From Perna viridis (Eukaryota), in assembly GCA_037379345.1 (NCBI GenBank), contig CM074519.1, forward strand, positions 14,796,742-14,860,741: a DNA stretch of 64,000 nucleotides. Reading direction: 5' to 3'. The first letter of the stretch is position 1; each line of letters begins with the position of its first letter. Made by a program: the position numbers and the translations under genes. The notes below the pieces were generated by a model. The model was not told where the DNA came from, ran no database searches, and saw only the letters and a program-made list of their open reading frames with translations. Below, one piece after another: positions 26,929 to 63,675 of this stretch.

Positions 26929-27039
26929 TGATATGATTCATAAATAGAAGCACCGCAGCGTACTTGTAGTTTCCATTTGTTTTAACACTATTTTTTAAGT
27001 GATTTTTACGAATGAATTATACACATTTTCTTACAACCC

Positions 27040-40757: not shown

Positions 40758-42755
40758 TTTCTATTTTCGAAATGTACTGTCAACTTTGATATGACGAGTA
40801 TTTGTGATATAAAATGAACAAAATTTAAAGTTATTGTTAAATAACTACGGCATACAATGTGAAACCTTAGAGATACATATGAGGTATTTCTTTTGGGAGA
40901 TAACAGTTTTATCAGCGTATACTATTCATTTTAAGTGAGATTACATAAATGGGATGACGCTCACTTGGAGTATAAAAAATCTAGGTCATTTTAACATGAT
41001 ATATACACACTCAAAGTCCAATTGCAGATCAAGTATGGTACTGATCAGCATATTTTTTTCAATGAAACACCACGCGACTGGAAACTGTTCTACATCAGCT
41101 TAACACATGGCAGGCCAAGGAAGGACAAATACACAGTAAGACTGCCATTCCTCCCTACATCAGCTCAACACATGGCATATCACAGAAGGACATAGAGGAT
41201 AATACGACACGGACAGCCGTTCCTTTATAATACAGGTCTGTGTTGAATGATGCAAAATTTCCGTCAGACATACTAAATGCCTTGCCTAGTAAAGAAAATA
41301 ACCATTTTCTATAAAGATAATCAGCACTTAAATATAAATTTGTTTTTGTATATTTCGGACAGGTGTTTCCGTTGCTTTGCAATCATCTTTTGGTTTCCGA
41401 GGATGGTACACGCCTTGAATCTGTTCTCGAACAAGGGTTAATGAATTAAAACAAAACAAAAACTGCTGTTTTACTGCAAAAAGCATAACCTAAAATCGCT
41501 TACAACGTATGTCCTATCTATATAAAGACACATCAAATTTAAAATCAATTTGGAAATGAGATGATTACGACGAAATCGGATGACCGGAATGACAGACGGA
41601 CAGACAAGTGATTCCAACATACCACCAACTCGTTAATTGGGGGTATGAAATATCGTCCTACAACTGCGACCTAATGGAGACTTTTATAGGTCTTACCATA
41701 AGGATATTAAATTCAACATCAGCAATTTCTTTCTATCTATTATGGTTTTCAAGTTTCTGCAAACTAATGACACAAGACAAAATTGTTCGCCTTTAAAGGG
41801 CCATTACTCTACAAAATGTAACCTTGACCCAAAGAAACTTTCTTAGGCTTTATCATAAGAACTACTTCATAAATGGGATGTTCTTTTCTATCAATTACGG
41901 GTTTTATTTTAAATTGAAAAAAAAAAAACAACAAAAACAACAAAAAACAACAAAAAACATAGTTCACCTTTCAAGTTACAACAACTATAACAAAATGTTG
42001 TCCTTCAACTTTGAACTAACATAGACTTGAAGCAAAATAGTGGAATAGTGGCTTTACTTATATGTTCTATAATCAAACACTGCAATCACATTTGTTTCCC
42101 CATAATCAACACAATATTTAAAGTAACCCATTTAAATAATGCTGATGACTAAATTTGGTAACAATCCACTCAGTAATTTCAGGAGAGAAGATTTTTTTTT
42201 AGAAATGTAAACAACCACAGATGCTAAGAAATGGCAAAATGACAATTGTGTTATCTCCCTTCACAATATGTTTTGTATTTAATGAAAATGATTTGTAAAA
42301 TCCTTAACTTTGTGTGGTTTCAACATAGGTACTTTGGAATAATCTTTTAACCTTCTTTTATTGTTTGGAACCTTGTGGTCAGATTTTATAAAGATCAACC
42401 AACTAATACTCAAAGTTGTTATCACATCAAATCCAAGTGTCCCTGGACAATAACACAAACAAAGACTTGAATAACTGACAACCACAACAAGCACCATACA
42501 ATCATATGACAATTTTCTTTGCAATCATTGAAAAATTCCAGATCCCTGAACTTTATTTTAACTCAGTTTTTGTGACAAAATATGGACAATAATGTATTGC
42601 AAAAAAAAGCTATTTATATTCATTTGATGTTACAGTTTGGGTTAATAAGGAACTGCAAACAGCTGTCCGAGTTGTAAGCCATGATACAAATTACCATTCT
42701 TTCCTCATTTCCAAAAACTTTGTAAAGAAAACTCGAATAAAAGGAAAAAAAGAAA

Positions 42756-44668
42756 AACAAGAGGCTCCCAGGAACCTGAATCGCTCACCTGGTTGAATTT
42801 TGCCTTTCAAGGGCAATAAATCAAACAAGAAGTCCAACAATTTTGACCCAAGAAAACTTTGATATGACTTATCATATGGATCATTTCAGTAAATGAAAGT
42901 CTAAATCTATTATAGTTTTCAAGACATTGGCTGAAAACTGTAAAAAAAGAAAAACCTGTCATTTTCCCCTGTCAAGGGCAATAACTCCTATAAGGTGTCT
43001 GAAAAATTTTATGCCTGAAGACTTTTGTAGTCCTAAAAATAAGGATCATTTCAGCTATTGAAAGAATTTGGCTAAACCTAACTGTTTTGGAGATATATGC
43101 GAAAAACTACTGTCTGACCCTTGTGTTCTATTTTTAGTAACAGTGGCCATGTTTTTCGACGGATCAAAAAACCCCACTAAAATTCAATGCAGGATACCCC
43201 AAGGTACACTTATATCGAGTTTTGTTTCAATTGATAAAATAGTGTCAGAGGAGGAGATTTTAGAAAGAAATAACATTAAATAGCAAAAAACTTTGAATAG
43301 AAAAAGGGCAATAACTCCAACATGGCTTAATAGATTAAAATGAAAATTTGACCGCAGATAGATCTCATCATGCTGAACACTTTTACCTCTTTCAAAATGG
43401 GCTAAACCTAACCATTTTGGAGATATGTGCAAAAAACTATTGTCTGACCCCTATGTTCTATTTTTAGTAACAGCCGCCATACTTTTCAATGGATCAAAAA
43501 AAATCCCCACTTCAGTTCTATGCAGGATACCCTAAGGAACATTAATACTAAGTTTGGTTCCAATTGGTCAAGTAGTGTCAGAGGAGAAGACTTTTGAAAG
43601 AAATTAAAAAAAGCAAAAAAACATCGAAAAAGGGCAATAACTCCAACGTGGCAGTACAGATTAATATGAAAATTTGACTGCAGATAGATCTCATTATGTT
43701 GAACATTTTCACCTGGTCAGGATTGGGCTTAACCTAACCCTTTTGGAGATATATGCAAAAAACTCTTGTCCGACCCCTATGCTCTATTTTTAGTAACTGC
43801 AGCCATGTTTTTCAACGGATCAGAAATCCCTACAACAATTCTATGCAGGATACCCTAAGGAACATCAATACCAAGTTTTGTTCCAATTGGTCAAGTAGTG
43901 TCAGAGTAGAAGATTTTTGAAAGAAATAACATTAAAAATAGCAAAAAAACGTTGAAAAAGGGCAATAACTCCAACCTGTCTAAATAGATTAAAATGAAAA
44001 TTAGACCGCAGATAGATCTCATCATGCTGAACACTTTTACCCCCCCCCCCTCCATGTTAAAATTTAGCTAAACCTAACCGTTTTAGAGATGTATGTAAAA
44101 AACTAGTCTGACCCCTATGTTCTATTTTTAGTAACAGTGGCCATGTTTTTCGACAAATCAAAAATCCCCACATTGGTTCTATGCAGGATACCCCAAGGAA
44201 CGTTCATACCAAGTTTGGTTCCAATTGGTGAAGTAGTGTCTGAGGAGAAGATTTTTGAAAGAAATAACATAAAAAACAGCAAAAAACGTTGAAAAAGGGC
44301 AATAACTCCAACATGGCTTAATAGATTAAAATGAAAATTTGACTGCAGATAGATCTCATCATTCTGAACACTTTTACCTCAATAAGAATTGGCTAAACCT
44401 AACCGTTTTGGAGGTATATGTAAAAAAACTACTGTTTGACCCCTATGTTCTATTTTCAGTAATGGCAGCCATGTTTTTTGACGGACCAAAAATCCCCACT
44501 TCAGTTCTATGCAGGATACCCCATGAACTATTCATACCAAGTTTGGTTCCAAATGGTCCAGTAGTTTCAGAGGATAAGAAATTTGAAAAATTGTTAACGA
44601 TGACGGATGATGATGGACGCTTAGTGATGGCAATAGCTCACATGGCCTTCGGCCAGGTGAGCTAAAAA
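42756..44668 (+). mobile_element. Helentron-associated non-autonomous element (HINE-like) with an internal ~330-bp satellite array
   Basis: Begins AACAAGAGG...CGCTCACCTGG and ends with the hairpin AGCTCACATGGCCTTCGGCCAGGTGAGCTAAAAA. AAGGGCAATAACTCC recurs at ~42974, 43305, 43630, 43958 and 44296. Confidence 0.8.
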
Positions 44669-44942
44669 GGGAAAGGAAAGTGAATGTTCATTAATCCAGA
44701 CTAACATCTTACCAAACTACACTTTGTATCATTGAAACACAAAAATATTTTTTTTAGTTATACAAGGTGTAGATGGATAGACTGATAGAAAAATAGACCA
44801 TAGTATACATTCTACTGGAAGATGGGTGTAAAAATACAGGTAAGTCCACATAATGTTTTAATAAGTCTATCACAGATTCATTCAGCATGTGATTAACATC
44901 TATTACTGTTACAACATGTACTAAAGAGTCCAATGTAGGTTA

Positions 44943-47900
44943 CTACGGTGACTGTCGTCTGCTGGACCATAACACCCATACACATAACCCACCAGATAAT
45001 ACCGTTCCAGCTCTACAAACAGGAAAACAATAATTAATGTATATGAATAGTTTCATCCATTCTTAGCCAGTGAAAAAAATGCATGTGACTATATAACCAC
45101 TGGATGGTGCTAAAATTTCTGTGAGAGTTTTCCTGCCATATTACATTTCCAAGTTTTCTACAGATTTCATGGGAGAAACAGATTCTAACTCCAATGCTCT
45201 CGGGGATTACAAGATTGCTCCACTCTCAATAGTTAAATTTTAGAATTCAACCCACAAGCTTTAGTGAGTGGGTTAATCTAAAATTTAACTATTGAAAGTG
45301 ATGAGATCTAGTAATCCCCTTCACACTGAAGGATAATCTATTTAAACTGGAGTGAGTGAATAACCAAAATATGATCATGCGTGTTGAAGGATGCCAAGAT
45401 TTAATGAGTACCCTATGCTTTGTATCATGGTTTATCCAAACTATCGCCTCATTTCCCTATTTATAATATATAAAAAGATTTTCTGAATAATCATTATTAG
45501 TTTTATAAAATAAATTTCAATTTTGTGGTTGATATTCCAAATCATCAATTATGTCAATTATAGTTATTTGATCATTTCGGATGAAGGAGAAAAACACCTG
45601 TTCATATGCACTGATATCGACCTGTTACATTGACTTAAGCTTCAGTAAATATAATCTGAATGGGTCCAAATATTATGTACTGAATTTGTCAAAAAAGTCC
45701 AAATTGATAAATATACTGTAATTACCATAAAAATAATTAGAAGGTATTGCCGACTTTGATACTACCCACAACAAAATTTCTAAATTAACATGTATGTCTG
45801 TAGCAAAAACTTCCTTTTTTTAACTAAGCATCATATTTTTTTCCCTTTTAGTTAATGATCCAACACCAAACCACCAAAAATTAAAATAAATATAAAGTAC
45901 ATTGTCTAACTTATGTTAAATTTCAAAATTGCACACATTTTTAAAATCAATGACATTTTCTCACCCCAAAACCCCACTATTATTTAGTGTTACTTACAAA
46001 TGGTATTTTGAACTCTATTGAGAAGAAAAATACTTAAAAAGTTTTCTGACATAGGTTCCTTAAATGCTTAAATATTTACGTACAATCTGAAAAAAAAAGA
46101 CTTACAACAGAACATTCTTTATCCCTGGAGAATGTCTCCATATACTGTACTTAGCTACTGATATTCTCTCATGTTGTCTAAAATTCTTCAGTATATCTTT
46201 GGCACTGAAAAAGGAATGATAGTAGAGTTATTCTTCTTTGTATGAACAAGATCACAGAAATAGAACAACTTCTTTACTTAGACATATGAAATATCAAACA
46301 AAAAAAAACAGAAACTAATATATCAGTGAAGAAAGATGTATAGTCCTGAGAAATTTCTTATTCTAACATTTTCTAACAAAATAGAGCAAATTAGGCAGCC
46401 TTACAAACAAGAGGTTTCAAGGAGCCTGAATCAATCATCTGGTTAAATTTTGCCTTTCAATGGTAAAAAAATTGAACAAGGAGTTGTCCAACAATTTTGA
46501 CTCAAGATTACTTTTTTCACCTTTCAAGGACGATAACTCTTACAACGAGTTGTGTGACAACTTTGATCCCTGGAGACTTTTGTAGGCCTTATAATAAGGA
46601 TCATTTCAAAATTGAAAGAATTTGGCTAAACCTAACAGTTTTGGAGATATAATATGTAAAAAAACTATTGTCTGACCCCTATGTTCTATTTTTAGTAAGC
46701 CATGTTTATTGACCAATCAAAAATCCCCACATCTGTTCTGTGCAGGATACCACAAGAAACATTCATACAAAGTTTTTGATTCCAATTGGTGTAGTGTCAG
46801 AGGAGAAGATTTTTTAAAGAAATAACATTAAAAATAGCAAAAAACGTCGAAGAAGGGTAATAACTTCAACATGGCTTAACAGATTAAAAATGAATATTTG
46901 ACCACAGACAGATCCCATCATGCTGAACACTTTTACCAAGTCAGAATTTGACTAAATCTAACAATTACCAAGATATATGCGAAAACTACTGACTGACCCC
47001 CTCATTCTATTTTTATTAATGGTGGTCATGTTTTTCACAGAGCAAAAATCTCCACACCAAGCTCGATTCCAATTGGTGAAGTAGTGTCAGAGAAGAGTCT
47101 TGAAAAATTGTTAACAATGACAACGGACACCATGTGATGGCAATAGCTTACATTGCCTTGGGCGAAGGTGAGCTAAAAAGTATCTTACCAGCCATAATTA
47201 GAAGTGGCCACCAATGCTGTTGTAGGTCCTCTTATCCTGACATCAACAGAACCATACTTAGAAAACCATCTGGCTATCTAAAGAGATACATGTGCATAAG
47301 ATGTATGTCTTATATATTAAGGATACTTTTCTTTTCTTCAGAATCTATCATGTGTAAAAACTTCTGTTGGGGAACCTATTTTAATGGGTTTCTTTGTTGA
47401 CCATACATGCATTTCACATCACTGTATAATAATTTTATAACAAGAGGCTGTAAAATACCTACCAACCAGATTTTTTTTTAATTGAAATTAGAATTGTGAG
47501 TGATTAACTTAAGGAAGTATTATTGAGTGTTCTTACAAAGATACATGTACATTCACCAATTCATAGAAAAGAATTCAAAATCAACTGAAAGAATGAACTT
47601 TTTGTCACAGATGCTATAGCATTTGTTGCATTTCAAGATATCAGTTCTTTGTATTAAATGGAATTCAAATAAATCTTTAAAATAAACATAACATTAAATG
47701 CTATTGGAAAATATGCAATTAGCATTGACCTTGACCTTTAACTTAAGTTATTTAAAAGCCCTTGATAATTTTTGTCAATGTCAAAATCTCTACAGTACAC
47801 CCTTCCTAAACTGCCACTGTTCATTCAAACAACTGAATGGCTGTATAACACATTTAGCAATAAAGTGAGGAACGACATAACTACGGTAGGAGTGAAAGTG

Positions 47901-50900
47901 TAAAAACAATGATCCATTTTTACAAAATAAAATTGTTGTAAAACATGTAAGTGTATTAAGCCTCTTGTAAGTGTAAAACCAATTATTGTGACACTATCAA
48001 TCCCATTGGAACTACTCAGACATTCTGGTTGTTTGCAGAGTAGTTCCAATTGGCTATTGATTAAAAATTGACCATTAAGATCACAGATGATTATGCCACT
48101 ACCCCAAAAATCAATCCATGTCTTTCTCTTGTGATATGACTCCTTGTAGTAAAAATCATACCAGATCAATTCATTTTTACTCAAGTTATTATTCCAACAT
48201 AGTGAAAATGCTTATTTCAGGCTCCTTTTGGCCCCTAATTCATACGGGATTTAAGTCTAAACTCCAAAATTGAGCACTGCAGACATGGACTACAATGCTG
48301 AAAAGAAGGTAGCCTTATAGATCATCATTGACAAACAGCAGGAAATCATTTCACTTGAGCTGGTACAGAGGGAGAAAAAAAAACACTGTACAGGAATTGC
48401 CAATCTGTAACTTCTATTTATAGCCCTTTGTTGTTAATAAAAAGATCATTATCTATATTGAGGAATGAAAAGAAAAAAAAGACCAGTAAAATCAAGATGA
48501 CTTCGCAACAGTGAAAAATAAATCTCTGAATGTCCAATAGGTGAAATAAAAAATCAATATACATGTACATGAAACCAAACCTCAATCTATACCTGTCCTG
48601 CTTCTAGTTTATAAGAAGATTTCCGTGACTTAACATAAAGTAAATCTGGTCTCTGGGATTCTGGATCTTCACCGTCAATACACTACAAGTATATTCAATA
48701 TATTTCTATAATCTGTGTAAAAATTCAATTCTCAAGTTATAGAAGATTACAGCTACCAGTCACACTATAAAAGATGAAAAGTAGAGAAAAGAAATGGGGT
48801 AGTTTTAATGAGACAACTATCTTGGCAGTCAAATACAAATTAATAATATTGTGAGAGATTTCAATAAAAAGCTTCGCCAAGTTCAGCACGATACTACCAC
48901 AGCCAGTTGAACAGTGTCCACTTAAGGCAATTGTGGACACAATATTAGTTTTTGACACACATAACATAAGAACTCACAGTTTATTATGGACACATCAACT
49001 CATCCAGATACAATATTGCACAATATTTTGAAATTCAATTTAAGTAAAAATGTCTGCTTCATGGATCACTTTGCACCTCACTATCTTCCTCTTGTGATAT
49101 GTCACTTTGTAATACATTTTCAAAATGATTCATTCACTAATAGCCAAGTTATTGTCTGGACATCAAGAAAATGCATGTTTCTGGCTTCCTTTTTGGCCCC
49201 TAATTACTGCAAAGTTCCAAGTTTTTACCTAAAAAATCAATCCAAGTCTGACCATCCTTGTATAGAATACTGTGGAACAATATCATAGACATTCCTATGC
49301 TTTTGATAGTGTGTTTATAGTTTATTTCCATGAACTGCTCGTCTTATGCCCTCTTTTTCCCCCTTTTTCTAAAACAGTTGGGGCCATAACTCCTAAAATC
49401 AATACCACCTACTTTTTGTGGTTTGGAACCTTGTTATAAAATTTAATCACGATCAACCTACTAATACTCAAGTTATCGCATGAATACCAAGTGTCTAGGG
49501 TCAACGAAACAACAATTCCAGTGCCATATCAATATTCCCTACTTGCGGAGCTCGTGATGCAGCCATATTTTATCCTGTTTTTGCAGAGTTACCTCCCGTA
49601 AGAGCAGGTATAATTTTCGAAGTCCCTCTAATCGATGTTTGGATTCAGGTGCAGAAAAAAGAGGTAACTCGAATGAAAACGGAATTCCCAGCAGACAAAC
49701 ACAACGGTGTATCTAAAATTTACAGGGTGTTTCATTTTGTTGGTAGGTTACATAAGGATGATTTTCATTTGTATCCCGGGTAAAGAAAATTTATGGCAGG
49801 GTCAGTAGAATGAGAAATTCCCTTTTGACTTTCGAGATTTGCTAAAGTATCGTCGATATCGGATGGAAAATCTTACATGTTACGATTAGACACCTGCTCC
49901 AAAGGGAGATAAATGTTGACAGAATGTTGGTCCGCAAGTCGGGAATCAGACTGCAATTTTTTGTGGTTGTAGAAAAAGAAAATACCCTTTGCTTAATGTG
50001 GACTTCTTGAAAACAATAATCTGATCCCCTTGCAGAGACATTAATCATCTTCCTCTATGAACATCTACATATGTTGCCTTGTCCCATATAAAATTTCATA
50101 AAAAAATATTTTGAGCAGTTAAGTTGCATTGATATTGTGGGTAGTATAATAAAATAAACAAGACCAAGACATGTTTGTTTAGAAGAAAATACTTGCAACA
50201 TTATAAAATTTATAATAATTAATTCAAAATAATAAATAAATTGGGTGTTAAGTAATAATATTACGATCTAAGAAGCAGAAATCATTTCCACAAAAGACAT
50301 AACTATTAAATCAAGCATAAATTACAGTCCAAGTATCACCATCTTTCCAAATTTTTTGCTCATCACTTGTAAGTCATTGCTCAATCACTCATGGTTCATT
50401 TTTTATCTTGCAGTGCTCATGGCTCAATCCATGACTCAAATGGGAAAATGAAGCATTACAGGGACTGTATGATGTAACAATGCTAAATTCTATTGTGTGA
50501 TGTGATAATTTACTTTTACTAAAACAAGATTTTGAGAAATTGACACCAGTTGTATGACTTGGTTAACTTACTATATGGTTAATGTTGGCCCTGATTACAT
50601 TGACTTTATTTACATATTGTGAAAAGGAATGTACATATCTTCTGAATGAACATGGTACAACATCTGAAGATCTAAAAATATATAAATATTATTAGAAAGT
50701 TGGTCTTATCATATAATGAAATCATGATAAAAGAAAACAAAACATAGCTTAAAAACGTACTTTTAAAACAAAAAACTTCTTAATGTACAACAATAAATGG
50801 AGATTAGTATCAATTGTTTCAAGTTAACAATGGTCTCCAGAATATATAATGTCTTGTTTTTTATTGTTTCAAGTTAACATTGGTCTCCAGAATATATAAT

Positions 50901-53900
50901 GTCTTGCTTTTATTGTTTAAAGATGAATTTTTTTACAGTGCCATATACTACACAAAAACATACTGCATTTTTATAATGAAAACTAGAAAAGCTGTGAGCA
51001 AAACTCACTCGGTGATACCCTTGCTCCCCTCCATAGAAACCATATGGACACCCCAAAATGTCATTCAGATGGAAAAACAAAACAAAAAGAGATGCACAAT
51101 GACAACAAGTGATAAAGAATGTGTGAAACATTTAGCAAATTCCATACAGCAGTTCAAGAGGAAATGTGGATTGTAAAGAACAATTAAAATCCATGGGTAG
51201 TATAAGAGAAATTGGGGCACCAGATATGTGGTTAGATGAAGAGACTGATAGACAAATAGGATGATTCATATGAATGTGACATGAATGAAATCAAAACTTG
51301 ACTGAAGTTATCTCTATTTTATATTTGTTTAATACTTACAAAGTATCTTTAAATGTCTCTATGTGAGCTATTCTTAGAAAAACTGTAAATACATATACAT
51401 GTATCATTATATAAACACATTCAAAAGATTCCGAAGTGAATAGGATTTAGAAACATTATCATAGTAATATACAAATATTTCAATTTACCATCAAAAGAAA
51501 GTCTACTTCCTCATAGCCTTATGTATTTGCATGAAACCTGTTACATGTATTCATTTTTCTGAAAAGAACCTATGCATTCCAAAATAGACTCCAATAACAC
51601 TGTTGTTTTGTACACACAAAATGGGGATGCCGATCATTCCAACAATAATGAAAGAAATGGATGAGTGGATAAGGAGTAAGGAAGCAAGATACATATATAT
51701 TAGACTGATTGATGATTGATATTAGAATTAGTGCAGTATAACTCAGCAAAATAATGCATTTTGCTCATGCAACACTGTTTTAGTGTCTAAACTTTTATTA
51801 CTATATTAACAGGGTTATTCCATTATGTTATTTAAAACAATGTAGAAGACCATCTGATCACCAACTAGATACCCCCCCAATCATCCATTTGATAAAATGC
51901 AACTTTTGATCTCCAAACTGATTTGGATCATACTCTAAAATAAGAGGTGTACAATGGGGAACATGAAAAGATGTTATAAAAATTTTGTGAAAGTTCCATT
52001 AAATTGCATTAAGTGGTGTAGAAAGAGAAGGGATAAGAGATAAGTAGCCCTCTGCTTAATGGAAAAAAGGAAGTATGGCAGTACAGACTGAAGGAGGGAA
52101 ACCCCCAATCACTATATACCCCTACTTCCTGGGGAAAAGAAATTTGGTTGACCCCAAGAAACAATATAGAAATGGGAGGATGAAATAATATGTGTTTGAA
52201 TACATACCATAACCACACATGTATGAATCATAACCTGCTTGATGTGGTAGATCTTCTGACACTGTCAATATAAATAATTCATATACAACATAACATAGTG
52301 GTAAAAAAAATGATACATAAATAACGAGTCAACATTCTATGACTTCATATTAATGGCAACTGGATTCAAACTCCATGAAAAAATACTACACAGTAAATGT
52401 AGAAGTGTAAACTTAAAATAACTTTCACAGCCTGGTCCCACCTCATTACTGGTCAAGTGTAAACTTACAATAATTTTCACAGCCTCGTCCTAGCTCAATA
52501 CTGGTCAAGTGTAAACTAACAACTTTCACAGCCTCGTCATAGCTCAATACTGGGGGAGTGTAAACTGACAATAACTTTCACAGCCTGGTCCCAGCTCAAT
52601 ACTGGGGGAGTGTAAACTAACAATAACTTTCACAGCCTGGTCCCAGCTCAATACTTGGGAAGTGTAAACTAACAATAACTTTCACAGCCTCGTCCTAGCT
52701 CAATACTGGGGGAGTGTAAACTAACAATAACTTTCACAGACTCATCCTAGCTCAATACTGGGGGAGTGTAAACTACTAATAACTTTCACAGCCTCGTCCT
52801 AGCTCAATACTGGGGGAGTGTAAACTAACAATAGCTTTCACAGCCTGGTCCTCTCAATACTGGGGGAGATTAAACTTACAATAACTTTCACAGCCTGGTC
52901 CCAGCTCAATACTTGGGGAGTGAATCACATGTTGCTGTCCCTTCTGGCTAACACAATAGAAAAAGATCATATAAAACTCTGTGGTAAAGTTTGTATCTTA
53001 TTATCATTTCATCCAACAAACTCCATTTCATTTAATCTTATATCTAAAAAGATCATTAACTAGTTTTACAGATAGTGTTTCCTGTTTAAATAAACCACTC
53101 ATTTCTTCCCTTTCCTATTTCAATGGTTTAGACAGATATGTGTTTACCTAACAAAAGCTTATAAGGTCAAGTAACACTTCTTGGTTCTCATGCCAAATAG
53201 GGGAGGTAAGCATATCTTTTCACCTCCTTATTGCCTAAAAGATTGATGAGGGTCTTTTTAACTTTGTATGTATTGATATAGTTATCTGGGATGATTTTAC
53301 GAGGTTGTCAAAAAATGAGGAATTGGTAAAATTGGAAATAAATAAACAGTAAAAAAAAAAGAATCGTAATGGTAAAATTAGGATTTCAATTAGCATAATT
53401 CCGCTAAAAAACGGAAAAAAATTCTCCCCGGGTTATACAAGTGGATAAGGAGGCACCATTAAGGATATAAGGGAGGGCTAAGAACCAAGACATCCTTTCT
53501 AATTGTTTATGGTGTACCAATTTAAATGATTTTATGAATTATTACTTGTATAATCCAAACTAGATGTAAAATTTCCATTAAAAACAATAATATTACAGTT
53601 TCTCCATATATATATAACTACACAAATGAATAAAATTTTAAACCAATAAAAATTGTAAAAAAGCCTTTAGCAATTGGATTAATTTTTCTTTTAATCTTCT
53701 GTCAGGAGACAATGATATTACAGAATCTTCAATATTATACCAAATATATAATTGACCTATTACCTATGTAGTGACTGGTATAAACTTGACAATGCTGTGG
53801 ACTCAAATAACCCTGTCTGCTCCAATGGCTACAAAATAAAAAAAAATACATAGGATATATTTTTGTGCTTAAATTTAATCCTTTCAGGTTAGAAACGAGT

Positions 53901-56900
53901 ATTCTTTTTTTTATACATAATGAAATTTCAAATTCCAGGTCAAACCTTGAATAAATTTACAGTCTTTATGAAAAAGTATACTTTGAGAATATCTTGGCTC
54001 CTGCTGCTACAAGTCAATTTTGTTTAATTGTGGGGTATGTCGTATCAATCATTATCCTTTAAGGTAGAGCAAGTTGTGTAAAACTTTCATCTTTATGTTC
54101 CACAAAGAAGGGTTTAACAGTTCCTTTCTTTGTTTTAGAGGCAACAACCTTTCATTACAGACCTTTTTCAATGTACAGCTGATGTGTTTTGTATCAATGA
54201 TTACTGGGAACAACTTGTGTAGTTCTGATTTGAATTCTCTGTAACTACCTACAATATAGCAATCAAAAGGTTCATATGTTGATTGTTATTCATATTTATA
54301 GCCATATGATATTTCCTTATCTCACCCATGTCACAATTAAACATATCATGTCTTACCAATATGAAGAAATAACGGCAAGCAGGGCATCCTGCGGCATTAA
54401 AAAACTAATACTGGTTTTAAAAATGAGAAAAAGAATCAAACACTGCCAAATATTGCAAGACTACAAAATCTCTGACACTTTAGAGAACTTGATATCTTAC
54501 TGTTGGGTGTCTGAGATTTCCAGTCTCAGGGGTGTTAGATTCTGACATTAATAATTCAGTGGGAGACCATCAGCTTCAAAACTCAGTACTTAATCCAATG
54601 AAAAAAACTCTTCCGTGCTGAATGAAAATTTTTTACTAACTTTGCATATTAATACCTTAAATCTTATGAAAATGAATAAAAATGCATAAAAATTATTATT
54701 AATAAGTGTCACAATATTTATGTTTTAATCACATTCTTGCAACAAAAAGTGCATTGTAACGATTCCTAAATTTACAGTTCACTTAAGTTCAAGGAAAATG
54801 TCTAAGACTTACTAATAGTTGGCCACTGTATATAAACCTCATTATTTTTTCATTGTATAAGAAACACAAGTCTAAAGGTGTAATAAATTTTTTTTATCAA
54901 CATAACTTTATAGAGTTGAAAAATCATAAAAAGAGTTACTTACGAGGCAAAGGTTTGTAGAATTTGTCATAATACAACAGAAGGTCCATTAACATATTGT
55001 GGCCTAAAATTGGCTGAAAAAGATAAACTTAATTCACTAGAATATATTTTCAAGGAAAAAATCTATTCCTGACACCTGTCCTCCATTTTGTATGTTTGTT
55101 TGTCAAATTATTTCCTCTCTCTTCAAAAATGTATTATATACTGGGAAACATAATTTTTATTTCTTAATTGTAAATGACAAACAAACAGGGGTAAAACACA
55201 AAATGTCAACTATTTTTTTTTAATAGTTGTGAAAGCATAAAAATTATTCGCCCTATATTTTCTGAGTTTACTTGTTAATGTTTGACAATTCATTTCACAG
55301 AAGGTTTATACACTATATTATATTATAGGTTTATAATTCATACCTACCTTTTTGGCTTGGGTTAATAATCTGAAAATTCTTGTGAACCCTATTAAGCTGT
55401 CTTTTAAGCTGCAAATAGATCATTACATGCACTACTTTTCAAAATTGTCCAATTACAAAAAAGATCAAATTGAAAATGAATGTCTATCAGGAAGTAAGCA
55501 ATAGGTGATAATGTGCACAAAGTACACATAAATTATATCCTCTATAAAAGTCAAATCCATATAAAATCTGAGGCTTGCTATTTTAAATATTATCGGTCCT
55601 AAATAAATATTTAACCAAGTGTATACAAAGAAAAGTTCTATCTACGCATAAAAAAAATTTCAAAGGAACTCTCCTTTTCAATTTTCTTGACATTTTATTT
55701 CAAAAGCACATGGTAATACATAGCTGATGTTAGAATATTGGCCTAAATATGATCAAAATTGCCAATACAATACAAAATACAAAAGTGTGCCAATACGGAA
55801 TTTAGCTGTCCAATACATCATATTGACCTGATTAAAATTCATATTGGCCTAGTCAGTCAATAATTGTGTAAGGTTTTGCATATTAGCTGAGTTATGTTAT
55901 TATACTTTATTGAGTAACCAGTCCAATACATAAAAAAGTATTGTGTAAGGTTTTCTGTATTGGTTAATTTGATTGGTCCAAGGCAAGCAATACTAGACTG
56001 AGGCGTAGTTCAAATCTACTATGGCTAACCAAGGACCAATAACTAAGTCATTATGGAAACCTGCAATTGTATCTATACAATATGTTCTTATTGTCTATTC
56101 TAATATGGATTTCCAATATTGGACTGGTCAGAACAGGGCCAAAATGGATATTAGAAAGGTAGTTGTCATATTGGCATACTCATAAATTTGTATAATATTG
56201 AAGATTGAAGGTTATTTCTATTGTTAGTTAATAATTATAGTATCATTATGTAAGGACCAGAAATGTATTGGCACAGGTAAAAGCTGTATTGGATGGCTAA
56301 ATCCCATAATGGTGCACTTGCATATTTTGTACAGTATTGGCAGTTTTAATCATATTTAGGCTATTGATATTCAAATGTTTATCAATTTTGCAAGCTCTTA
56401 AAAAAATATGATAAAGTTGAAAACTTATTTAAAAATGTATCTGCATTTAAAGCTTACGATGTTGTTTGTTCTGATTTTGATTTCAATTCTTCATTTTCCA
56501 ACTTTTTTCTTGTTTCTTTATCTACTCTTTCTATCTTTATCTGAAAATAAATTACTACCTTATTACCTACAAAACATGAAAACAATGAAAGTTTTCATAT
56601 TTTTGAACATTAAAATTTATATTTGCATAGCAATATTAAAGGATTACATGATAAAATAGTTACTCTGTACATCAGGGTATGTTTTTATTAACCAAAAGCC
56701 ACAAACAATTGAAACTACAATTTGGACAAGTAAAAGTTACCCATACTTCATACTTACTCAGGGGACAATCAAATCTTACTTATTTTTCAAAATGCATTCA
56801 CTAAAGGACAACCTAGGTTTCAATTTGGGCAAGTAGAATTTTCATCAAATTGTCCAATAGGACAAGGGTCATAAAAGTTAAATGTCATATTGTCACATCC

Positions 56901-59900
56901 TTTACATGTACATCAATAATAGGTCATACCCATGGGAACATGTATTCATGGAGGCTATTTCAGCCATTGGTAATGCCTTATGTTGTTTTTATTACAATAG
57001 AAAACATTGCAAAATATCTTAGAAGTAACACAATTACACATTTTACCAGTAAAAAAAATTGTCAGCCTTAAAAATTCATGAAAAGGTTTTCCATTCCTCA
57101 TAGAACTAAATTTTGACATTACTCACAGTATCTTTCTCTATGGTTGTCCATATATCAGAAAATCTATTCCGTAATTCTGAATGAATTATATAATCTTGTA
57201 TTCCATCAAAATCTGAAACAAATCGAACTATGATATTACACAATTGAAGTAAAAGTATATCATTATATTTTAAGTATGACAGTTTATAATATACAATTAA
57301 ACCTGTATTAAACAGTCACCTCTGGGGAATACTTAAAGTGACCTTTATAGAGAGGTGACCTTTGGAATGAGGTTACCAATAGTGATGTAGAAAGACTTTG
57401 ATGTCAGCATATAATCCCATATTCCTTTAGATTGTACTATCTCTGATTGTCATAATATTACTTGTAGTTGTCTATCATTTTCAGAAGTAGATTCATGTAT
57501 TTAAAAATGTATTCATTCAAAATATCATTCAGATAAAAATATATGACAATAAAAAACAAAGTATTTCCTCATTTCCCGTTTTATGTTGTTTTCACCATCT
57601 ATGTTATTTTCAATGTCCTCTATAATTTCTGCTTTTCTTTTCGGCAATTTTAGTGATTTGTGTTTTTACGACATCCATTTCCTTTAAAACAGCACTTTTT
57701 TTTTTGGTTTTTGCTACAAAATGTCTTGTATAGTAAGAAATTATCTTTGACATATACTATGAAAACTGGTATCAGATTTACAATCAGGACTTTTTAATTA
57801 CTCTAAAAATTATTTAATGAGGAAAACAAAAGAGTCTAAAATGATGAAAGCTTCAATCAGTACCAAGGTCTCTGACTTCTCATATACAAAGTTTAACATT
57901 TGATTTGTTGATGAAACACCACCCTGGCTCATAAAAACGGTGGCCTTAACTTAAGGGCTGTTCCATTAAAACATATGAGGTACCCAGGGAGGGTATTTTT
58001 TCATCAGGGGAATCACCAATAGAAGTTCTATTGATGTTTTGTATAAAACTTCATATTTTGTCAAGAGACCTGAACACCCACCCATATTCAAAGAATTTGA
58101 AAAGTGTCTTCCCACTGTCCCTCACATGTTTTACTGGAACAGCACTTAGTAGATTACTTAAATTTGTACTTGGTAAATAACTGATGTGTATAGATAACTA
58201 TACTTATTGAATGGATAAAAATACGCCAAGTATGTATACAATCACGCAATTTTATAATTTGTGAGTTAAATAAAATCAACCATGTTACCAATAAGAAAGA
58301 ATGGTGTCAACTTAGTGTTAGCAGGTACCTTCATCATTTTTAGATATTTCTAAAGGACTGTTAGACTGGAGTCCAAACATCCATTCAGCAACAATAGAAC
58401 ACAATCTCTGTATGGCAGACTCATCTACTTCCCTAGAGTTAAAATAATGGGGAAAAAACATAACTAAACTTTTTTCATTTTTAAATTTATAAAGTTAAAA
58501 CCAAATGTATTTGTTACCTACATGTAAGTTCATCACTAAAATAAAAATTTTATACAACTAAACATGGTATTAATTTCCTTTATAACTACAAAACACCTAA
58601 AAAACTGTCATAGTGGGAGGTAAATATATTGAAAAATGAATTGCAATGGGAAAATTAAGATTTGAAAAAAGTGGAATAATGCTTAAGCATGTTAAGAGTG
58701 TAAAAAATAAGATCTGAAATATAGCTTTTTCTTCATTAAGTGGAGGTTTAGCTTTCTCCATTCAGCTTTTTTAAATGTATCTCTCACTTTGAGAGTAGTC
58801 TTGCTTACACTACTTAAGTAAATTCAGACAATGTCAATGGTATAGGTGATTCATGGAACAGAAAAAAAAAACCACCAATAATATCTACAAGTCTACATTA
58901 TGTAATATTTTTATATATCTATAGACTTTTTTGCATACAGATCTGCATTTTTGAGAAAACCATGCATTCAACTCAAATCAACCAAGTCAAGAAGGAAAAT
59001 CAATGCAAACCATCAATTTCCTGTACAATCTACGGTATGCAACAACCAAATGAAAAACCAAGACATGTTATGTGGTCTATAACTGTTTCTGAATTAAAAA
59101 AAACAAATTTTGCAGGTTTTTGCATGAATAACCTTATGTATGATATTATTAAAGAACGCAACGTAATTGTATTTAAATTGGTATTTGATTTTTTAACAAA
59201 TATTCTGGTTAAGTGATAACAAGAGTTGACGGGAAAAACATGTAAAATAAAAAGCTTTACCTTATGCAGCATAATTTGACAACAGCTGGTTGAACTCTGT
59301 TCATTTGAGGCAAGTGTAAACACAATATTAATTTTTGACACACTACATATTTGGACTTACAGTTCATTATGAACGCAACAACTCATTTGGACACAATATT
59401 GCACAATAAAAATTTGAAATTCAATTTTAGTATAAAGGTTTGCTTCATGGATCAATTTGTACCTCATTATCTCAAAACACAGTAAATGATAGGGTTAATT
59501 TTGTTAGCAAACTTCTTTAAGCTCTTGTATTTTGGCTGGGATTTTCAAATGAAATCCATTTTTTTTTTAAATCACACCAATAATTTTTAAGTCAATTTTT
59601 TAAAGTTTGGTCCCTTTTGGCCCCTTATAACTCAAAAACTGAATATGTGAAATCCGAAAAATGCAGGTAGGGATTGTCATGAAGAATCTAAATCAGACCA
59701 GAAATTAAGAAGCTATCCACAAGAAATCAGAAAAAATACTTGTTTTGGGCACCTTCATGCCCCATTATTATTACTTTGCCCTCGTCATAACCCCAAAAAT
59801 CAATCCCAGTCTTTCTTTTGTGATGTGGCACTTTGAAATACAATTTCAAAAAGTTTTCACTAGTAGTCAAGTTATTGTTTGGACATCAGGAAAATGCATG

Positions 59901-62900
59901 TTTCCTGCCCCCTTTTTTTGGGACCCAAATTTCATTAATTGCTTGTTTCAGGCCCCTTTTTGGGCACTAATTCTAAAATAGATGGGGCTATAACTTCTGA
60001 AATCAATACCAACCTTCCTTTTGCAGTTTGGAACCTTGTTGCATGAAACATACCACAGCAAGTTTTTTGCAGTCATATAACAAAAATATTTATGGCAGAT
60101 AAGAACAAATTCACTGGCTAACATTGTAAACTTCAGTATGTATTTCACTACTGAACCAATAAATACCTTAAAACATGCATATGCCTAGGTGTCATTTAAA
60201 AAGATTTTCTACAACCTTTTTCATAGATATTTTCTAAAGTTGCAGTGTTATTAAATCACTCAAATTGAGCCTTTTCAACTCAAACATTGACCAATCAGAT
60301 CACTTGAAATTGAAGATATGAGGAAAAACTAGAGATTTGAGGAAATTCTTAACTTACGGTTGTTTTTTTTTTTAATCCAGGCCTGATGACACTGTATCAG
60401 ACTTTAAGGTTGTTTGAGGGTAAATGCAAAGAACATCTGATATGAACAACCTTGATTAGCCACAGAGGATAGGAGGAAATGAAGCATAGCTTTTTTGTCC
60501 AGGTAAATAGAAGACAAATCTTTGGAATAATTAGTTGAAATATCACACTTGATTTACTTTAAAAATAAATACTGAAGTAAAATAAAATTGTTAACGTGAA
60601 ATTTTTGCTGAAGTAGTGACTTAATCAACAAAGCATGAGAAGCCAGATACTGGTCTGACAACCTGATTTCTATATTGGGAAAGTTCATTTTTCTAAAGGA
60701 AATCAGAATCTTTTAAATTCTTAAGTACTATTGTATACTTACCTCTCTAAACCTTGAAATAAGTCTTTCCTTTCTAAGTACAGTGATAACTGCTGTTCTT
60801 GTTCTTCATTCATATAAGATATCCCATTGTATATAAACTGAAAAGATACTGCATTAAATATAAACAGAAAAGATACCTCATTTGTATATATATAAAATGA
60901 AAAGATATCCTATTAAATTTGTACATATAACTGAAAAGATATCCTATTAAATATAATCTGTTTTCAGTTTAGATAACCCATTATATATGAACTAAAAAGA
61001 TACCCATATTATATACAGACTGAAAAGACATCCTATCACATGTATACATAAACTTCATTTATTCATTCATGTCTTTATTTCTTCTTAAAGAGGTATCAGT
61101 TTAGCTGAATCACCAACATGGTAATTTAACTGTACACCCATACTTTTTAACTTCATTTAATTGAATTGGCATTGAATACTGGTAATTTCTGTGCTACATC
61201 TCAAAACAAACTTAACAACTGGCATAACAAATCATACATACAGTTTCTAGCACTTCAAACCTCTCTTAAAGTCTGTCAGAATCTGTCAGGAAAACTGTTC
61301 TACGACAGCAAATAAAACAGAAATCCTGACCAGGTCTGACAGAAGCTGTCCTGGGTCAGAACACATTTTCCCCTATTTCCCGACAGATCCTGCCAGAAAC
61401 TGTTCTGGGTTGTGACAATGAAATACAAAAAGCTGTTCTTAACTGCCATACCCCTAGACAGTTCCCGACACTAAATCTATCTACACTGTGTTAAGTAATT
61501 TAGTACAGCAATTAATAATGGAAACAAATTAGCAAATCCGATAAGAAAAAAAAATCTTGATTTCAAAATTTACATTGAATAATTTCCAGATTTTATAGAG
61601 CTGATCATGATCATCATCTGACAATCACTCGATCGTGGTTCATTTTCCAACATTCGGCGCTCATCGTTCAGAAATTATTATTGTTTACATATATAATTTT
61701 AAACATTCTGTCATAGACCTGTAATTAAATTCTGTTTTTTATATTACAGGTCTATGATTCTGTTCTAAGTGTAAAAACGGTAACCGATAACTTTCAGGTG
61801 TTTGGTAATTTTCACACCAAGTTCAAGACTGATAAAGTAATATTTGAGTGAAAGTACTTTTAAAATTACATTCAAAATAGGGTCTCAAATCATTCTATAA
61901 AATGTTCAAATTGACAATATTAGCTTAAAGGTGACTGCTATCAATATATTTCAGTCAAAATTCTTTAAAATGCCATTTAATATAAATATAAGTATCATAT
62001 GGGTACCTTACAACATATATATTTCAAACAAAATTCTTAAAATTGACATATTTTTTGCAAATGTATATGAGTGCTAGCACTTTTGAAATTCTTTAAAGCC
62101 AGGGGCGTAGCACCTGGTAAGGCCTGGACGGTACCAATAATTTTTGTTGGTACATCATGCCGTTCATAAGTTTTGTCAAAAATTGAAAAAAAAGAGTTCA
62201 AAAATAATAAGCTAAGCCCTGAAAGACCCTGACAAGATGTATCAGGGATCAGAACAGTTTAGACTTGTTTTATGACAGCAAACCCTGATAAAATCAAAGA
62301 AAGGTTAGAAGTGATCGCAACTGTACACAGTATAAACCTTGTGTTAGAATATCAAGTGGTTGTGTTATGTTCCAGTAGTAGCAAAGAAAATTATCAAATC
62401 CCACAATATGGTACAGTTCTATAAAGCTTGTGTCAAAATATCATGTGGCTGTGACAAGTACCAGTAGTAACACAGAAAATCAACAAATCTCACAATATGG
62501 TACAGTTATATAAACCTTGTGTCCAAATATCAAGTGGCTGTGACAAGTACCAGTAGCAACACAGAAAATTATCAGACCTCACAGTATGATACACTTGTAT
62601 AAACCTTGTGTCCAAATATCAAGTGTTTGTGACAAGTACCAATAGAAGCACAGAAAATTATCAAATCTCACAATATGGTACACTTACATAAACCTTGTGT
62701 CCAAATATCAAGAGGCTGTGACAAGTACCGATAGCAGCACAGAAAATTATCAAATCTCACAATATGGCACACTTATATAAACCTTGTGTTAGAATATCAA
62801 GTGGCTGTGACAAGTAGCTGCTCCTCAGAAAATCAGTTATAACAAAAGTATGACAGATATACGAGAGGCTACAGCATACTACACTCATTTGGAGAAGGGA

Positions 62901-63077
62901 TATAACAATAACTTCATTGAATATCCAAAGTACCCATGACAGACAGACAGACAGACAACATACACAATAATATCTCACATCTGTATTGATTGGCAAAATG
63001 AATGATCCAGTATTTCTAGTGAAACTTACCTTATTAAAATCAAATTTATATTTACACAAGAATCTGAGACTACTTGC
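44943..63077 (-). CDS. PNLDC1: PARN-like ribonuclease PNLDC1 (piRNA 3' Trimmer; CAF1/DEDDh nuclease with C-terminal TM anchor); 5'-partial, 436 aa in window
   Basis: 17 exons: 63030-63077, 60743-60837, 58329-58432, 57127-57212, 56458-56540, 55348-55408, 54944-55013, 54163-54248, 53764-53828, 52880-52947, 52208-52261, 51340-51382, 50572-50671, 48593-48682, 47189-47277, 46106-46204, 44943-45012 (1311 nt, all GT-AG, phases consistent). Motifs ASSLRFL..YKFDFNK, NGISYMNEEQE, GFTRIF, PILGHNMLMDLL, FPVIIDTK, HQAGYDSYMCG. The C-terminal WRHSP plus hydrophobic tail (VLLAGTVLSGGLCVWVLW) distinguishes PNLDC1 from PARN. Confidence 0.92.
45202..45319. repeat. Long imperfect palindrome (fold-back element) in the last PNLDC1 intron
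   Basis: TCAATAGTTAAATTTTAGA ... TCTAAAATTTAACTATTGA, with outer arms GGGGATTAC / GTAATCCCC. Confidence 0.7.
46406..47179 (+). mobile_element. Second, shorter copy of the HINE-like family, in a PNLDC1 intron
   Basis: Same AACAAGAGG start, same internal units and same GGCAATAGCT...GGTGAGCTAAAAA end as 42756-44668. Confidence 0.8.
48950..49545 (+). mobile_element. Another interspersed HINE-like family (second copy at ~59217-60040)
   Basis: Shared blocks TTTGAAATTCAATTT...TGCTTCATGGATCA, CAAGTTATTGT.TGGACATCA.GAAAATGCATGTTTC and TTTGGAACCTTGTT. Boundaries are approximate. Confidence 0.6.
50813..50918 (+). repeat. 50-bp tandem duplication
   Basis: ATTGTTTCAAGTTAACA(A/T)TGGTCTCCAGAATATATAATGTCTTG occurs twice. 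Confidence 0.85.
52403..52922. repeat. 52-bp minisatellite, 10 copies, overlapping PNLDC1 exon 52880-52947 and its donor site
   Basis: Unit AATAACTTTCACAGCCTGGTCCCAGCTCAATACTGGGGGAGTGTAAACTAAC, with copies starting near 52420, 52471, 52521, 52571, 52623, 52675, 52727, 52779, 52831 and 52880. Confidence 0.95.
55739..56363. mobile_element. MITE with ~45-bp imperfect TIRs in a PNLDC1 intron
   Basis: GCCTAAATATGATCAAAATTGCCAATACAATACAAAATA ... TATTTTGTACAGTATTGGCAGTTTTAATCATATTTAGGC; interior rich in CAATAC/GTATTG. Confidence 0.75.
60816..61055. repeat. Degenerate ~26-34-bp tandem repeat overlapping the acceptor of PNLDC1 exon 60743-60837
   Basis: About 8 units resembling AAGATATCCCATTGTATATAAACTGAA. 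Confidence 0.75.
62325..62817. repeat. 89-bp tandem repeat, ~5.5 copies, intronic
   Basis: ATAAA(C/G)CTTGTGT recurs at ~62332, 62421, 62510, 62599, 62688 and 62777. Confidence 0.9.
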
Positions 63078-63576
63078 CTACAAAATATGAAAATAGGGCA
63101 TTAATGTTAGTGATTTTATGCAGTTTTGTATGGTACATGTACTTAACAACTGTGTAAAGTTTAAAACAATTTAATTGATCGGTTTTCAAGTTTTCATCTG
63201 GAAACCATCAGGGATAAATAGACTGTCAGATGGACTGACATGCACCTTTTTGAAGGGTATCACATAATACCTCACCACTTCATGTCGTGGTATACAAGAA
63301 TTTATATGTTCTAGCAGAGAGTCAAATATTATACATAGATAAAGGAACAAATGCACCATGGTATTAAAAAAATTGTAAATACTTACAGAGATCACCAAAT
63401 GACTTCAACACACTTTTAAGTAAGCTCTGAAAGGCCCTGACAATGCAGTAATAAAATCTAAGATAACAGAACAAGTACATTTCTTTAAAATAAACTAAAG
63501 AGTCAACAACATAAAGACACATTATTGACCAACATCTTACATGTCTGTGTTGGGGTTAAACTAGTTTATAACTACT

Positions 63577-63675
63577 CCCCTTAAATGTAAGGTCAAACTA
63601 TCTCCCTTAAATGTAAAGTCAAACTATCCCTCTTAGATGTCAGGTCAAACTATCCCCCTTAAATGTAAGGTCAAA
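63577..63675. repeat. ~26-bp tandem repeat, ~4 copies
   Basis: CCCTTAAATGTAAGGTCAAACTATC units. Confidence 0.85.

What the first reader, a model, noticed from the sequence alone, without database searches (positions are those of the whole stretch)
52403..52947. Minisatellite built from a PNLDC1 exon end plus its 5' splice site: an array of decoy donors before the catalytic exon
Seen: the 52-bp unit is the last ~43 nt of coding exon 52880-52947 (HSPSIELGPGCESY) plus the first ~9 intron nt, amplified to 10 copies into the intron. The true donor is TATT|GTAAGT. Most copies carry weakened GTTAGT/GTCAGT, two have lost the GT, and one (52463-52468) has a perfect GTAAGT. Reading past the true donor hits TGA within 9 codons, so using any downstream donor would truncate the protein before the catalytic HQAGYD exon. 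Inference: either selection has dampened the decoys, or copy number tunes productive splicing/NMD of a piRNA-pathway gene.
Basis: partly seen in the sequence, partly recalled or inferred. Interest (0 to 1): 0.7.

Follow-up and report, generated by a model that had tools for sequence, protein, structure and literature searches.

The report
Repeated splice donor in mussel PNLDC1
A 52-base piece covering the end of one exon and its splice signal is repeated ten times in a mussel gene related to the piRNA-trimming enzyme PNLDC1, but the assembled transcripts leave the exon at the first, genuine signal, so it is likely a harmless example of a repeat type already known from human and lancelet genes.

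Summary
The array is real: 10 copies of a 52-bp unit (52404-52922), made of the last 43 nt of exon 14 and the first 9 intron nt of a 21-exon PNLDC1-like gene. The gene is 74% identical to a Mytilus protein. In 3 of 3 RNA-type contig sets laid on it, the exon joins the catalytic exon from the first donor only; contigs drop rare forms. Only copy 9 pairs with U1 as well as the real donor. Donor changes are modestly enriched (4 of 19 difference blocks in +1..+6, P=0.17), and one amplified change explains most weakened copies. The arrangement is common here: at least 4 of 40 arrays in 483 kb sit on exon boundaries. These include an acceptor array in this gene and donor arrays in SARM1-like and EFCAB5-like genes that keep 4 of 5 and 21 of 29 full-strength decoys. 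This is the known F7-IVS7 / amphioxus 'mirage' type, and the scan noted it before (25 findings, at least 11 genomes). There is no evidence for tuning of splicing or NMD. One untested possibility is an in-frame 81-nt cassette inside the array.

The parts
52404..52922 (-). Minisatellite, 10 x 52 bp; unit = 43 nt exon end + 9 nt intron start
52880..52947 (-). Exon 14 of the PNLDC1-like gene (68 nt); its 3' 43 nt are copy 1
   Evidence: tblastn with P0002, 69% identity over the HSP; joints 52947-53764 and 52261-52880 in 3 of 3 RNA-type contig sets
52874..52879 (-). Authentic donor GTAAGT (ATT|GTAAGT), U1 duplex -5.4 kcal/mol
52854..52856 (-). TGA met on read-through, inside copy 2; lies upstream of every in-register downstream donor
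52515..52829 (-). Copies 2-8: weakened or lost donors (GTTAGT x5, GTCAGT, AGTAGT), U1 duplex -1.3 to -1.8
52463..52468 (-). Copy 9: the only intact decoy donor, 411 nt downstream of the real one
52469..52549 (-). Hypothetical in-frame, stop-free 81-nt cassette (CCCCCAG acceptor-like site to copy-9 donor); not seen in RNA contigs
   Evidence: computed; no such joint
52411..52416 (-). Copy 10: GT lost (TTAAGT)
52208..52261 (-). Exon 15 with HQAGYD (catalytic His and last Asp of the DEDDh motif, by alignment)
60823..61031 (-). Second, more diverged boundary array in the same gene: 27-34-bp unit of intron end + start of exon 6, six copies upstream of the true acceptor at 60837; the two nearest have lost the AG
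44940..63077 (-). Exons 5-21 of the PNLDC1-like gene; exons 1-4 lie beyond the window end (in L007/L008)

Best explanation
This is a minisatellite whose 52-bp unit spans the exon 14/intron 14 boundary of a mussel PNLDC1-like gene; the assembled transcripts splice from the first donor, and the nine intronic copies are likely drifting by-products that are removed with the intron. A local tandem duplication likely copied the boundary, and slippage or unequal exchange likely amplified it. One early A>T change at donor +3 was likely amplified into copies 2-8, which explains most of the 'dampened' donors in a single step. The real donor likely wins because it is the most upstream, closes a 68-nt exon, and is the only full-strength site within 400 nt. 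Any rare leak would carry a stop with six junctions downstream and would likely be removed by NMD.
For: Shown: joint 52261-52880 in 3 of 3 RNA-type contig sets (depth 23.8, 35.8, 7.3), each as one contig across exons 12-16. No joint to any other donor, and no RNA contig over 52512-52814. U1 pairing, with this genome's own U1: copies 1 and 9 -5.4; the other eight -1.3 to -2.6, weaker than all 20 authentic donors. The +3 A>T change is one block shared by five copies; 4 of 19 difference blocks touch +1..+6 against 2.2 expected, P=0.17. In 483,258 bases around the window, 40 arrays were found, and at least 4 sit on a verified exon boundary. The SARM1-like exon keeps 4 of 5 decoys at full U1 strength. 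The EFCAB5-like exon keeps 21 of 29, the three nearest included. Within the PNLDC1 gene, 2 of 7 arrays are on boundaries against 0.40 expected by random birth, P=0.056. Precedent: in human F7 only the most upstream of identical donors is used (PMC1557585), and amphioxus mirages do not disturb splicing (PMC3087553).
Against: Contigs drop rare variants, and the tissues are unknown, so minor or gonad-specific use of a decoy is not excluded. NMD would also hide such forms. Donor positions +1..+3 are the most changed 3-column window of the unit (1 of 50 windows; P 0.006 by columns, 0.02 by blocks, both post hoc). The copies next to the real site are the disabled ones in both arrays of this gene and in the SARM1-like array, which fits some purifying selection. 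PMC1557585 (Introduction) reports use of the two nearest pseudo-sites in human 6-16 and CBS.
Confidence: 0.7

Rival explanations
1. Purifying selection shaped the array: alleles with intact donors close to the exon leaked into truncated PNLDC1 and were lost, so only arrays with disabled proximal copies spread. The array still has no function, but its sequence is filtered.
For: 8 of 9 intronic copies are weaker than every authentic donor. +1..+3 holds 5.8 of 29 column changes (expected 1.7) and 4 of 19 blocks (expected 1.1). The two acceptor copies nearest exon 6 have each lost AG by different changes. The nearest SARM1-like copy is the only weakened one of five. The authentic donor is among the four weakest of 20 in the gene, so it may tolerate little competition (inference).
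Against: The +1..+3 window was chosen after looking; +1..+6 gives P 0.11-0.17. Only two changes (A>T at +3, G>T in copy 10) hit an intact donor; the other two fell on already weak copies. The EFCAB5-like array keeps full-strength donors in its three nearest copies and in 21 of 29 overall. Copy 9 is intact.
Confidence: 0.2
2. The array is a regulatory element: the copy-9 donor, by exon extension to NMD or by an in-frame 81-nt cassette just before the catalytic His, diverts part of the transcripts, and copy number sets PNLDC1 dose and piRNA trimming.
For: Copy 9 matches the authentic donor over 11 nt. Extension introduces a stop after residue 370. An in-frame cassette exists on paper. In humans, repeat length is associated with splicing at many loci (PMC10078293, passages) and at ABCA7 (PMC5954066, search listing only).
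Against: No alternative joint in 3 of 3 RNA-type contig sets. Copy 9 is 411 nt away, and in F7 use of pseudo-sites fell with distance. The cassette's acceptor tract is C/A-rich, unlike the T-rich acceptors of this gene. No length variation is shown. The same design occurs in unrelated neighbouring genes.
Confidence: 0.07
3. The array is an assembly artefact.
For: None found; no single record spans the whole array.
Against: Copies differ by 2-13 columns in a nested pattern. DNA run X3 matches 51993-52597 (copy 10 to part of copy 7) without a difference, and contigs of X11, X12 and X13 cover the 3' end of the array. X3 may be the source of the assembly.
Confidence: 0.02

Closest known systems
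Human F7 intron 7 37-bp VNTR (Borensztajn et al. 2006, PMC1557585; seen: abstract, Introduction, first Results section, Discussion)
   Same: First unit spans the exon-intron boundary; the donor is reiterated in the intron; only the most upstream donor is used.
   Different: The F7 unit is 4 nt exon + 33 nt intron with identical pseudo-sites and 5-9 copies shown polymorphic. Here the unit is 43 nt exon + 9 nt intron, 8 of 9 decoys are degraded, and polymorphism is untested.
Amphioxus 'mirage' minisatellites at Adh3 and globins BflGb6/BflGb9 (PMC3087553; seen: passages; supplements not seen)
   Same: Invertebrate; tandem copies of donor or acceptor boundaries; many but not all copies keep the signal; regular splicing is not disturbed. 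The paper's model of a copy becoming a new exon matches the hypothetical 81-nt cassette.
   Different: Length differences between haplotypes and somatic instability are reported there and untested here. I found no report for mussels or PNLDC1 in the listings.
Human 6-16 (IFI6) intron 2, CBS intron 13, LMNB2 and PDGF boundary minisatellites (as summarised in the Introduction of PMC1557585; originals not read)
   Same: Same architecture; LMNB2 and PDGF use only the authentic donor.
   Different: In 6-16 and CBS two pseudo-sites are also used (in 6-16 the two nearest). Here the nearest seven copies are weakened, and no such use appears in contigs.
PNLDC1 (PARN-like DEDDh exonuclease; PMC5062988, passages)
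   Same: CAF1 domain, DEDDh residues and a hydrophobic C-terminal segment; 74% identity over 541 aa, without gaps, to Mytilus californianus PNLDC1-like.
   Different: piRNA trimming is inferred from homology, not tested; no tree against PARN was built.

Membership tests
Boundary-spanning minisatellite (F7 IVS7 type / mirage) | Terminal unit contains a real exon-intron boundary | tested here: met
   Exon homologous to P0002; joint at 52880 in 3 of 3 RNA-type contig sets; unit = 43 + 9 nt
Boundary-spanning minisatellite (F7 IVS7 type / mirage) | Head-to-tail copies extend into the intron and reiterate the splice signal in some or all copies | tested here: met
   10 copies; 7 of 9 intronic copies keep GT in register, 1 of 9 keeps the full donor
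Boundary-spanning minisatellite (F7 IVS7 type / mirage) | The authentic site dominates splicing | tested here: met
   Only joint 52261-52880; shown for the dominant form only
Boundary-spanning minisatellite (F7 IVS7 type / mirage) | Copy number varies between alleles (VNTR) | tested here: inconclusive
   DNA contigs of X3 break inside the array, and summed contig depth is no copy number
Boundary-spanning minisatellite (F7 IVS7 type / mirage) | Pseudo-sites become active when the first site is mutated | not testable with these tools
   needs a minigene
PNLDC1 | CAF1 nuclease domain with DEDDh residues | tested here: met
   CAF1 hits on exons of this gene and on P0002; DAEF at 29, HNMLMD at 271, HQAGYD at 369; P0002 aligns to PARN 2A1R/3D45
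PNLDC1 | C-terminal hydrophobic (putative membrane) segment and no long PARN C-terminal domain | tested here: met
   543 aa; most hydrophobic 19-mer starts at residue 519, mean Kyte-Doolittle 1.83; feature from PMC5062988
PNLDC1 | Orthology shown by a tree against PARN | not tested
   rests on 74% identity to a protein that NCBI names PNLDC1-like, and on 14 of 15 own-genome matches of that protein lying at this locus
PNLDC1 | pre-piRNA trimming activity | not testable with these tools
   biochemical
Regulated unproductive splicing (poison exon / AS-NMD) | An alternative, stop-bearing junction is present in RNA | tested here: inconclusive
   none in 3 of 3 contig sets, but contigs drop rare forms; raw-read run X21 had depth 0-0.04 here
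Regulated unproductive splicing (poison exon / AS-NMD) | The element is conserved across species | not testable with these tools
   no related genomes are held

The most novel reading that the evidence does not exclude
The array is giving birth to a new exon in a piRNA-trimming nuclease: copies 8-9 form an in-frame, stop-free 81-nt cassette (52549-52469, made in frame by the 3-nt deletion in copy 8) that inserts 27 residues just before the catalytic His. With leak from the copy-9 donor to NMD, array length would set the dose of active PNLDC1 in the gonad, and so piRNA length. It would be a live case of the mirage-to-exon model.
Probability: 0.07. Interest if true: 0.55.

Novelty: new member of a known kind. 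Interest (0 to 1): 0.15.

Why it matters
As it stands, little: one more boundary-spanning minisatellite, in a genome region where at least 4 of 40 arrays are of this kind. The wider point is that mussel genomes may hold very many natural donor and acceptor ladders (extrapolated from one 483-kb region). These would allow a genome-wide test of first-site selection, and of selection against nearby decoys, in an invertebrate. It also matters for practice. Copies 6 and 7 share 38 and 34 nt with the exon end, so short junction reads cannot tell these donors from the real one. If the novel case held, it would link a repeat polymorphism to piRNA maturation and show exon birth from a duplicated boundary.

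Tried and rejected
1) RNA evidence: the look-up of sequencing runs listed no holder on record as RNA ('no RNA holder listed'). Raw-read run X21 (about 19 in 100 read) had depth 0-0.04 over 52012-53013, so it says nothing on rare donors. That first lay over 15 kb was swamped by dispersed repeats, and 177 joints were not shown. X13 and X14 have identical intronic pieces and may be one data set, so I count them once. 2) Copy number from DNA contigs: X3 summed depth was 23-33 over the middle of the array against about 5-10 beside it, rejected as a measure because unitig depths are summed. 3) Survey: the splice-site heuristic flagged 27 exon-array pairs at 14 of 40 arrays. I sent 7 translations from 6 arrays to Pfam and 1 hit; one more array was verified by homology. 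Eleven flagged arrays remain unverified, and several look false. The heuristic missed the exon-6 acceptor array, so 4 of 40 is a floor. 4) A single 41-aa exon found nothing meaningful in the PDB. 5) Weak tblastn matches of the HEAGFD region to the 89-bp array at 62331-62816 (E 2.5-25) are taken as chance. 6) Two first gene models had wrong exon bounds and were corrected; the donor positions used for U1 scoring were already the final ones. 7) Two papers recalled as relevant were not held and were not read: a 2023 human VNTR study with splicing effects, and the original 6-16 report. 8) The protein Atlas gave no answer.

Full report
Observation. Tandem Repeats Finder reports 52404-52922, period 52, 10.1 copies, 88% matches. 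On the minus strand the first copy is the last 43 nt of a 68-nt exon (52947-52880) plus 9 intron nt, and nine more copies follow. The donor positions read GTAAGT (copy 1, 52879), GTTAGT (copies 2, 4, 5, 6, 8), GTCAGT (7), AGTAGT (3), GTAAGT (9, at 52468) and TTAAGT (10). Reading through the real donor meets TGA at the ninth codon, and every in-register downstream donor lies beyond that stop. A DNA search of the own genome matched only this locus (6 of 6 matches), so the unit does not look like a dispersed element; that search can miss matches.

The gene. A 41-aa exon from just beyond the window found 2 proteins among 10 candidates, both named PNLDC1-like from Mytilus. With P0002 as guide, the gene has 21 exons and 543 codons and is 74% identical over 541 residues without gaps. 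The DEDDh motifs lie at DAEF 29, HNMLMD 271 and HQAGYD 369; P0002 aligns to PARN structures across them. A hydrophobic segment starts at residue 519, as described for PNLDC1 (PMC5062988, passages). The array follows exon 14, and exon 15 holds HQAGYD. Since the exon-derived part of the unit matches the Mytilus protein, the unit came from the exon and not the reverse (inference). No tree against PARN was built, and a piRNA role is inferred from homology.

Which donor is used. No holder was on record as RNA, but three contig sets proved to be spliced. In X11, X12 and X13 (3 of 3) one contig runs across exons 12-16 with four CT..AC joints, among them 52261-52880, at depths 23.8, 35.8 and 7.3. No other joint is listed, and no contig of these runs covers 52512-52814; only pieces of depth 2-3 cover the 3' end of the intron. 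The DNA run X3 shows no joint. Limits: contigs drop rare forms, tissues are unknown, and NMD would deplete the products in question. The one raw-read run had depth 0-0.04 here. X13 may be the same data as X14.

How strong the decoys are. With the 5' end of this genome's U1 snRNA, the authentic donor and copy 9 both give -5.4 kcal/mol. The other eight copies give -1.3 to -2.6, weaker than all 20 authentic donors of the gene (weakest -4.6). GTTAGT itself is not dead: it is the predicted donor of exon 1, where a G at -1 helps. Behind ATT it loses the pairing. So the ladder has one real competitor, 411 nt downstream.

Was it selected? By parsimony there are 29 column changes, 5.8 of them in +1..+6 (3.3 expected, P=0.11). 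All of these lie in +1..+3, the most changed of 50 three-column windows (1.7 expected, P=0.006, chosen after looking). Counted as distinct blocks against the exon copy, 4 of 19 touch +1..+6 (P=0.17) and the same 4 touch +1..+3 (P=0.02). The A>T at +3 is one block shared by five copies, and the changes in copies 3 and 7 most likely arose on top of it (inference). That leaves two changes that struck an intact donor. This hints at filtering but does not show it.

How common it is. Scanning all 40 exon boundaries of this gene gave two with local copies: this donor, and the acceptor of exon 6. That acceptor has six diverged 27-34-bp copies upstream; the two nearest have lost the AG, and three more distant ones keep TCTTTTYAG. 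Seven arrays lie in the gene; two on boundaries compares with 0.40 by chance (P=0.056). In 483,258 bases around the window TRF gave 40 arrays of period 20-250. Two more were verified as donor arrays on coding exons. One is a SARM1-like SAM exon with a 52-bp unit, where 4 of 5 intronic copies keep the authentic -8.0 donor and the nearest is weakened to -5.1. The other is an EFCAB5-like exon with a 47-bp unit, where 21 of 29 copies score -8.0 to -8.2 against -8.0 for the real donor, the three nearest included. Their splicing was not examined in RNA. Intact decoys therefore persist in this genome, and PNLDC1 is not singled out. Eleven other flagged arrays stayed unverified.

Most intronic copies carry CTCCCCCAG where the exon has CTCCCCAAG, an acceptor-like motif. 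From the one at 52550 to the copy-9 donor is 81 nt, in frame and without a stop; it would add 27 residues just before the catalytic exon. No contig shows it, and the tract is unlike the T-rich acceptors of this gene. It is the most novel reading left open.

Mechanism. Shown: the structure, the dominant splice form, the stop on extension, and the computed weakness of eight decoys. Inferred: birth by local tandem duplication and amplification by slippage or unequal exchange; choice of the first donor by position and exon definition; removal of any leak by NMD (six junctions lie downstream of the 14/15 junction; the NMD rule is from my own knowledge). I give 0.7 to a near-neutral array, 0.2 to an array filtered by purifying selection, 0.07 to a regulatory role and 0.02 to an artefact.

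What is known. PMC1557585 (abstract, Introduction, first Results section, Discussion) describes this architecture in human F7. It lists 6-16, CBS, LMNB2 and PDGF, and shows that the most upstream functional donor is chosen. It also notes that two further sites are used in 6-16 and CBS. PMC3087553 (passages; supplements not seen) names such arrays 'mirages' in amphioxus, reports undisturbed splicing, and proposes that a copy may become a new exon. PMC10078293 (passages) shows that repeat length can associate with splicing in humans. The listings of six searches showed no paper on such an array in PNLDC1 or in mussels; the library lacks most subscription journals. The scan's index holds 25 findings with these words in at least 11 genomes; they are unchecked notes and not used as support.

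Verdict. A real, correctly described, new member of a known kind. The regulatory reading is unsupported, and the selection reading is weakly supported. Interest 0.15.

Noticed in passing
window 60823-61031 (minus): Acceptor-type boundary array before exon 6 of the same PNLDC1-like gene: six diverged copies; the two nearest have lost AG by different changes.
   Followed up: yes
L029:3777-4354 (minus): SARM1-like SAM exon followed by a 52-bp donor array; 4 of 5 intronic copies keep GATG|GTAAGA, the nearest is GTAATA. Splicing not checked in RNA.
   Followed up: partly
L039:1958-3420 (plus): EFCAB5-like exon followed by a 47-bp x 30 donor array that fills most of a 1.7-kb intron; 21 of 29 decoys are as strong as the real donor. 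Splicing not checked in RNA.
   Followed up: partly
L035:6226-6339 (plus): 36-bp x 2.9 array that may duplicate an acceptor before a 37-nt exon-like stretch ending in AAG|GTAAGC; exon unverified.
   Followed up: no
window 62331-62816, 63570-63675, 50813-50922; L007:2578-3005 and 4453-5523: Five more intronic minisatellites (89, 26, 50, 27 and 27 bp units) in the same gene, not on exon boundaries; the two 27-bp arrays share a unit.
   Followed up: partly
window 43065-44588 and 46430-47100: 328-bp x 4.6 array and a related piece of a dispersed repeat family that draws many reads with other letters in RNA runs.
   Followed up: no
window 1794-3257 (minus): 487-aa single open frame that looks like a core-2/I-branching glycosyltransferase (name recalled from the sequence, not searched).
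   Followed up: no
window 33599-40760 (minus): Exons that look like a sugar/myo-inositol transporter of the major facilitator family (name recalled, not searched).
   Followed up: no
window 21501-22178 (minus) and 27016-28949 (plus): Open frames that look like reverse-transcriptase pieces of non-LTR or Penelope-type elements, the second in several frames (recalled resemblance, not searched).
   Followed up: no
exon 1 donor of the PNLDC1-like gene (L008, 9,751 bases beyond the window end): Predicted authentic donor TTG|GTTAGT, the same hexamer as the weakened decoys; not checked in RNA.
   Followed up: partly
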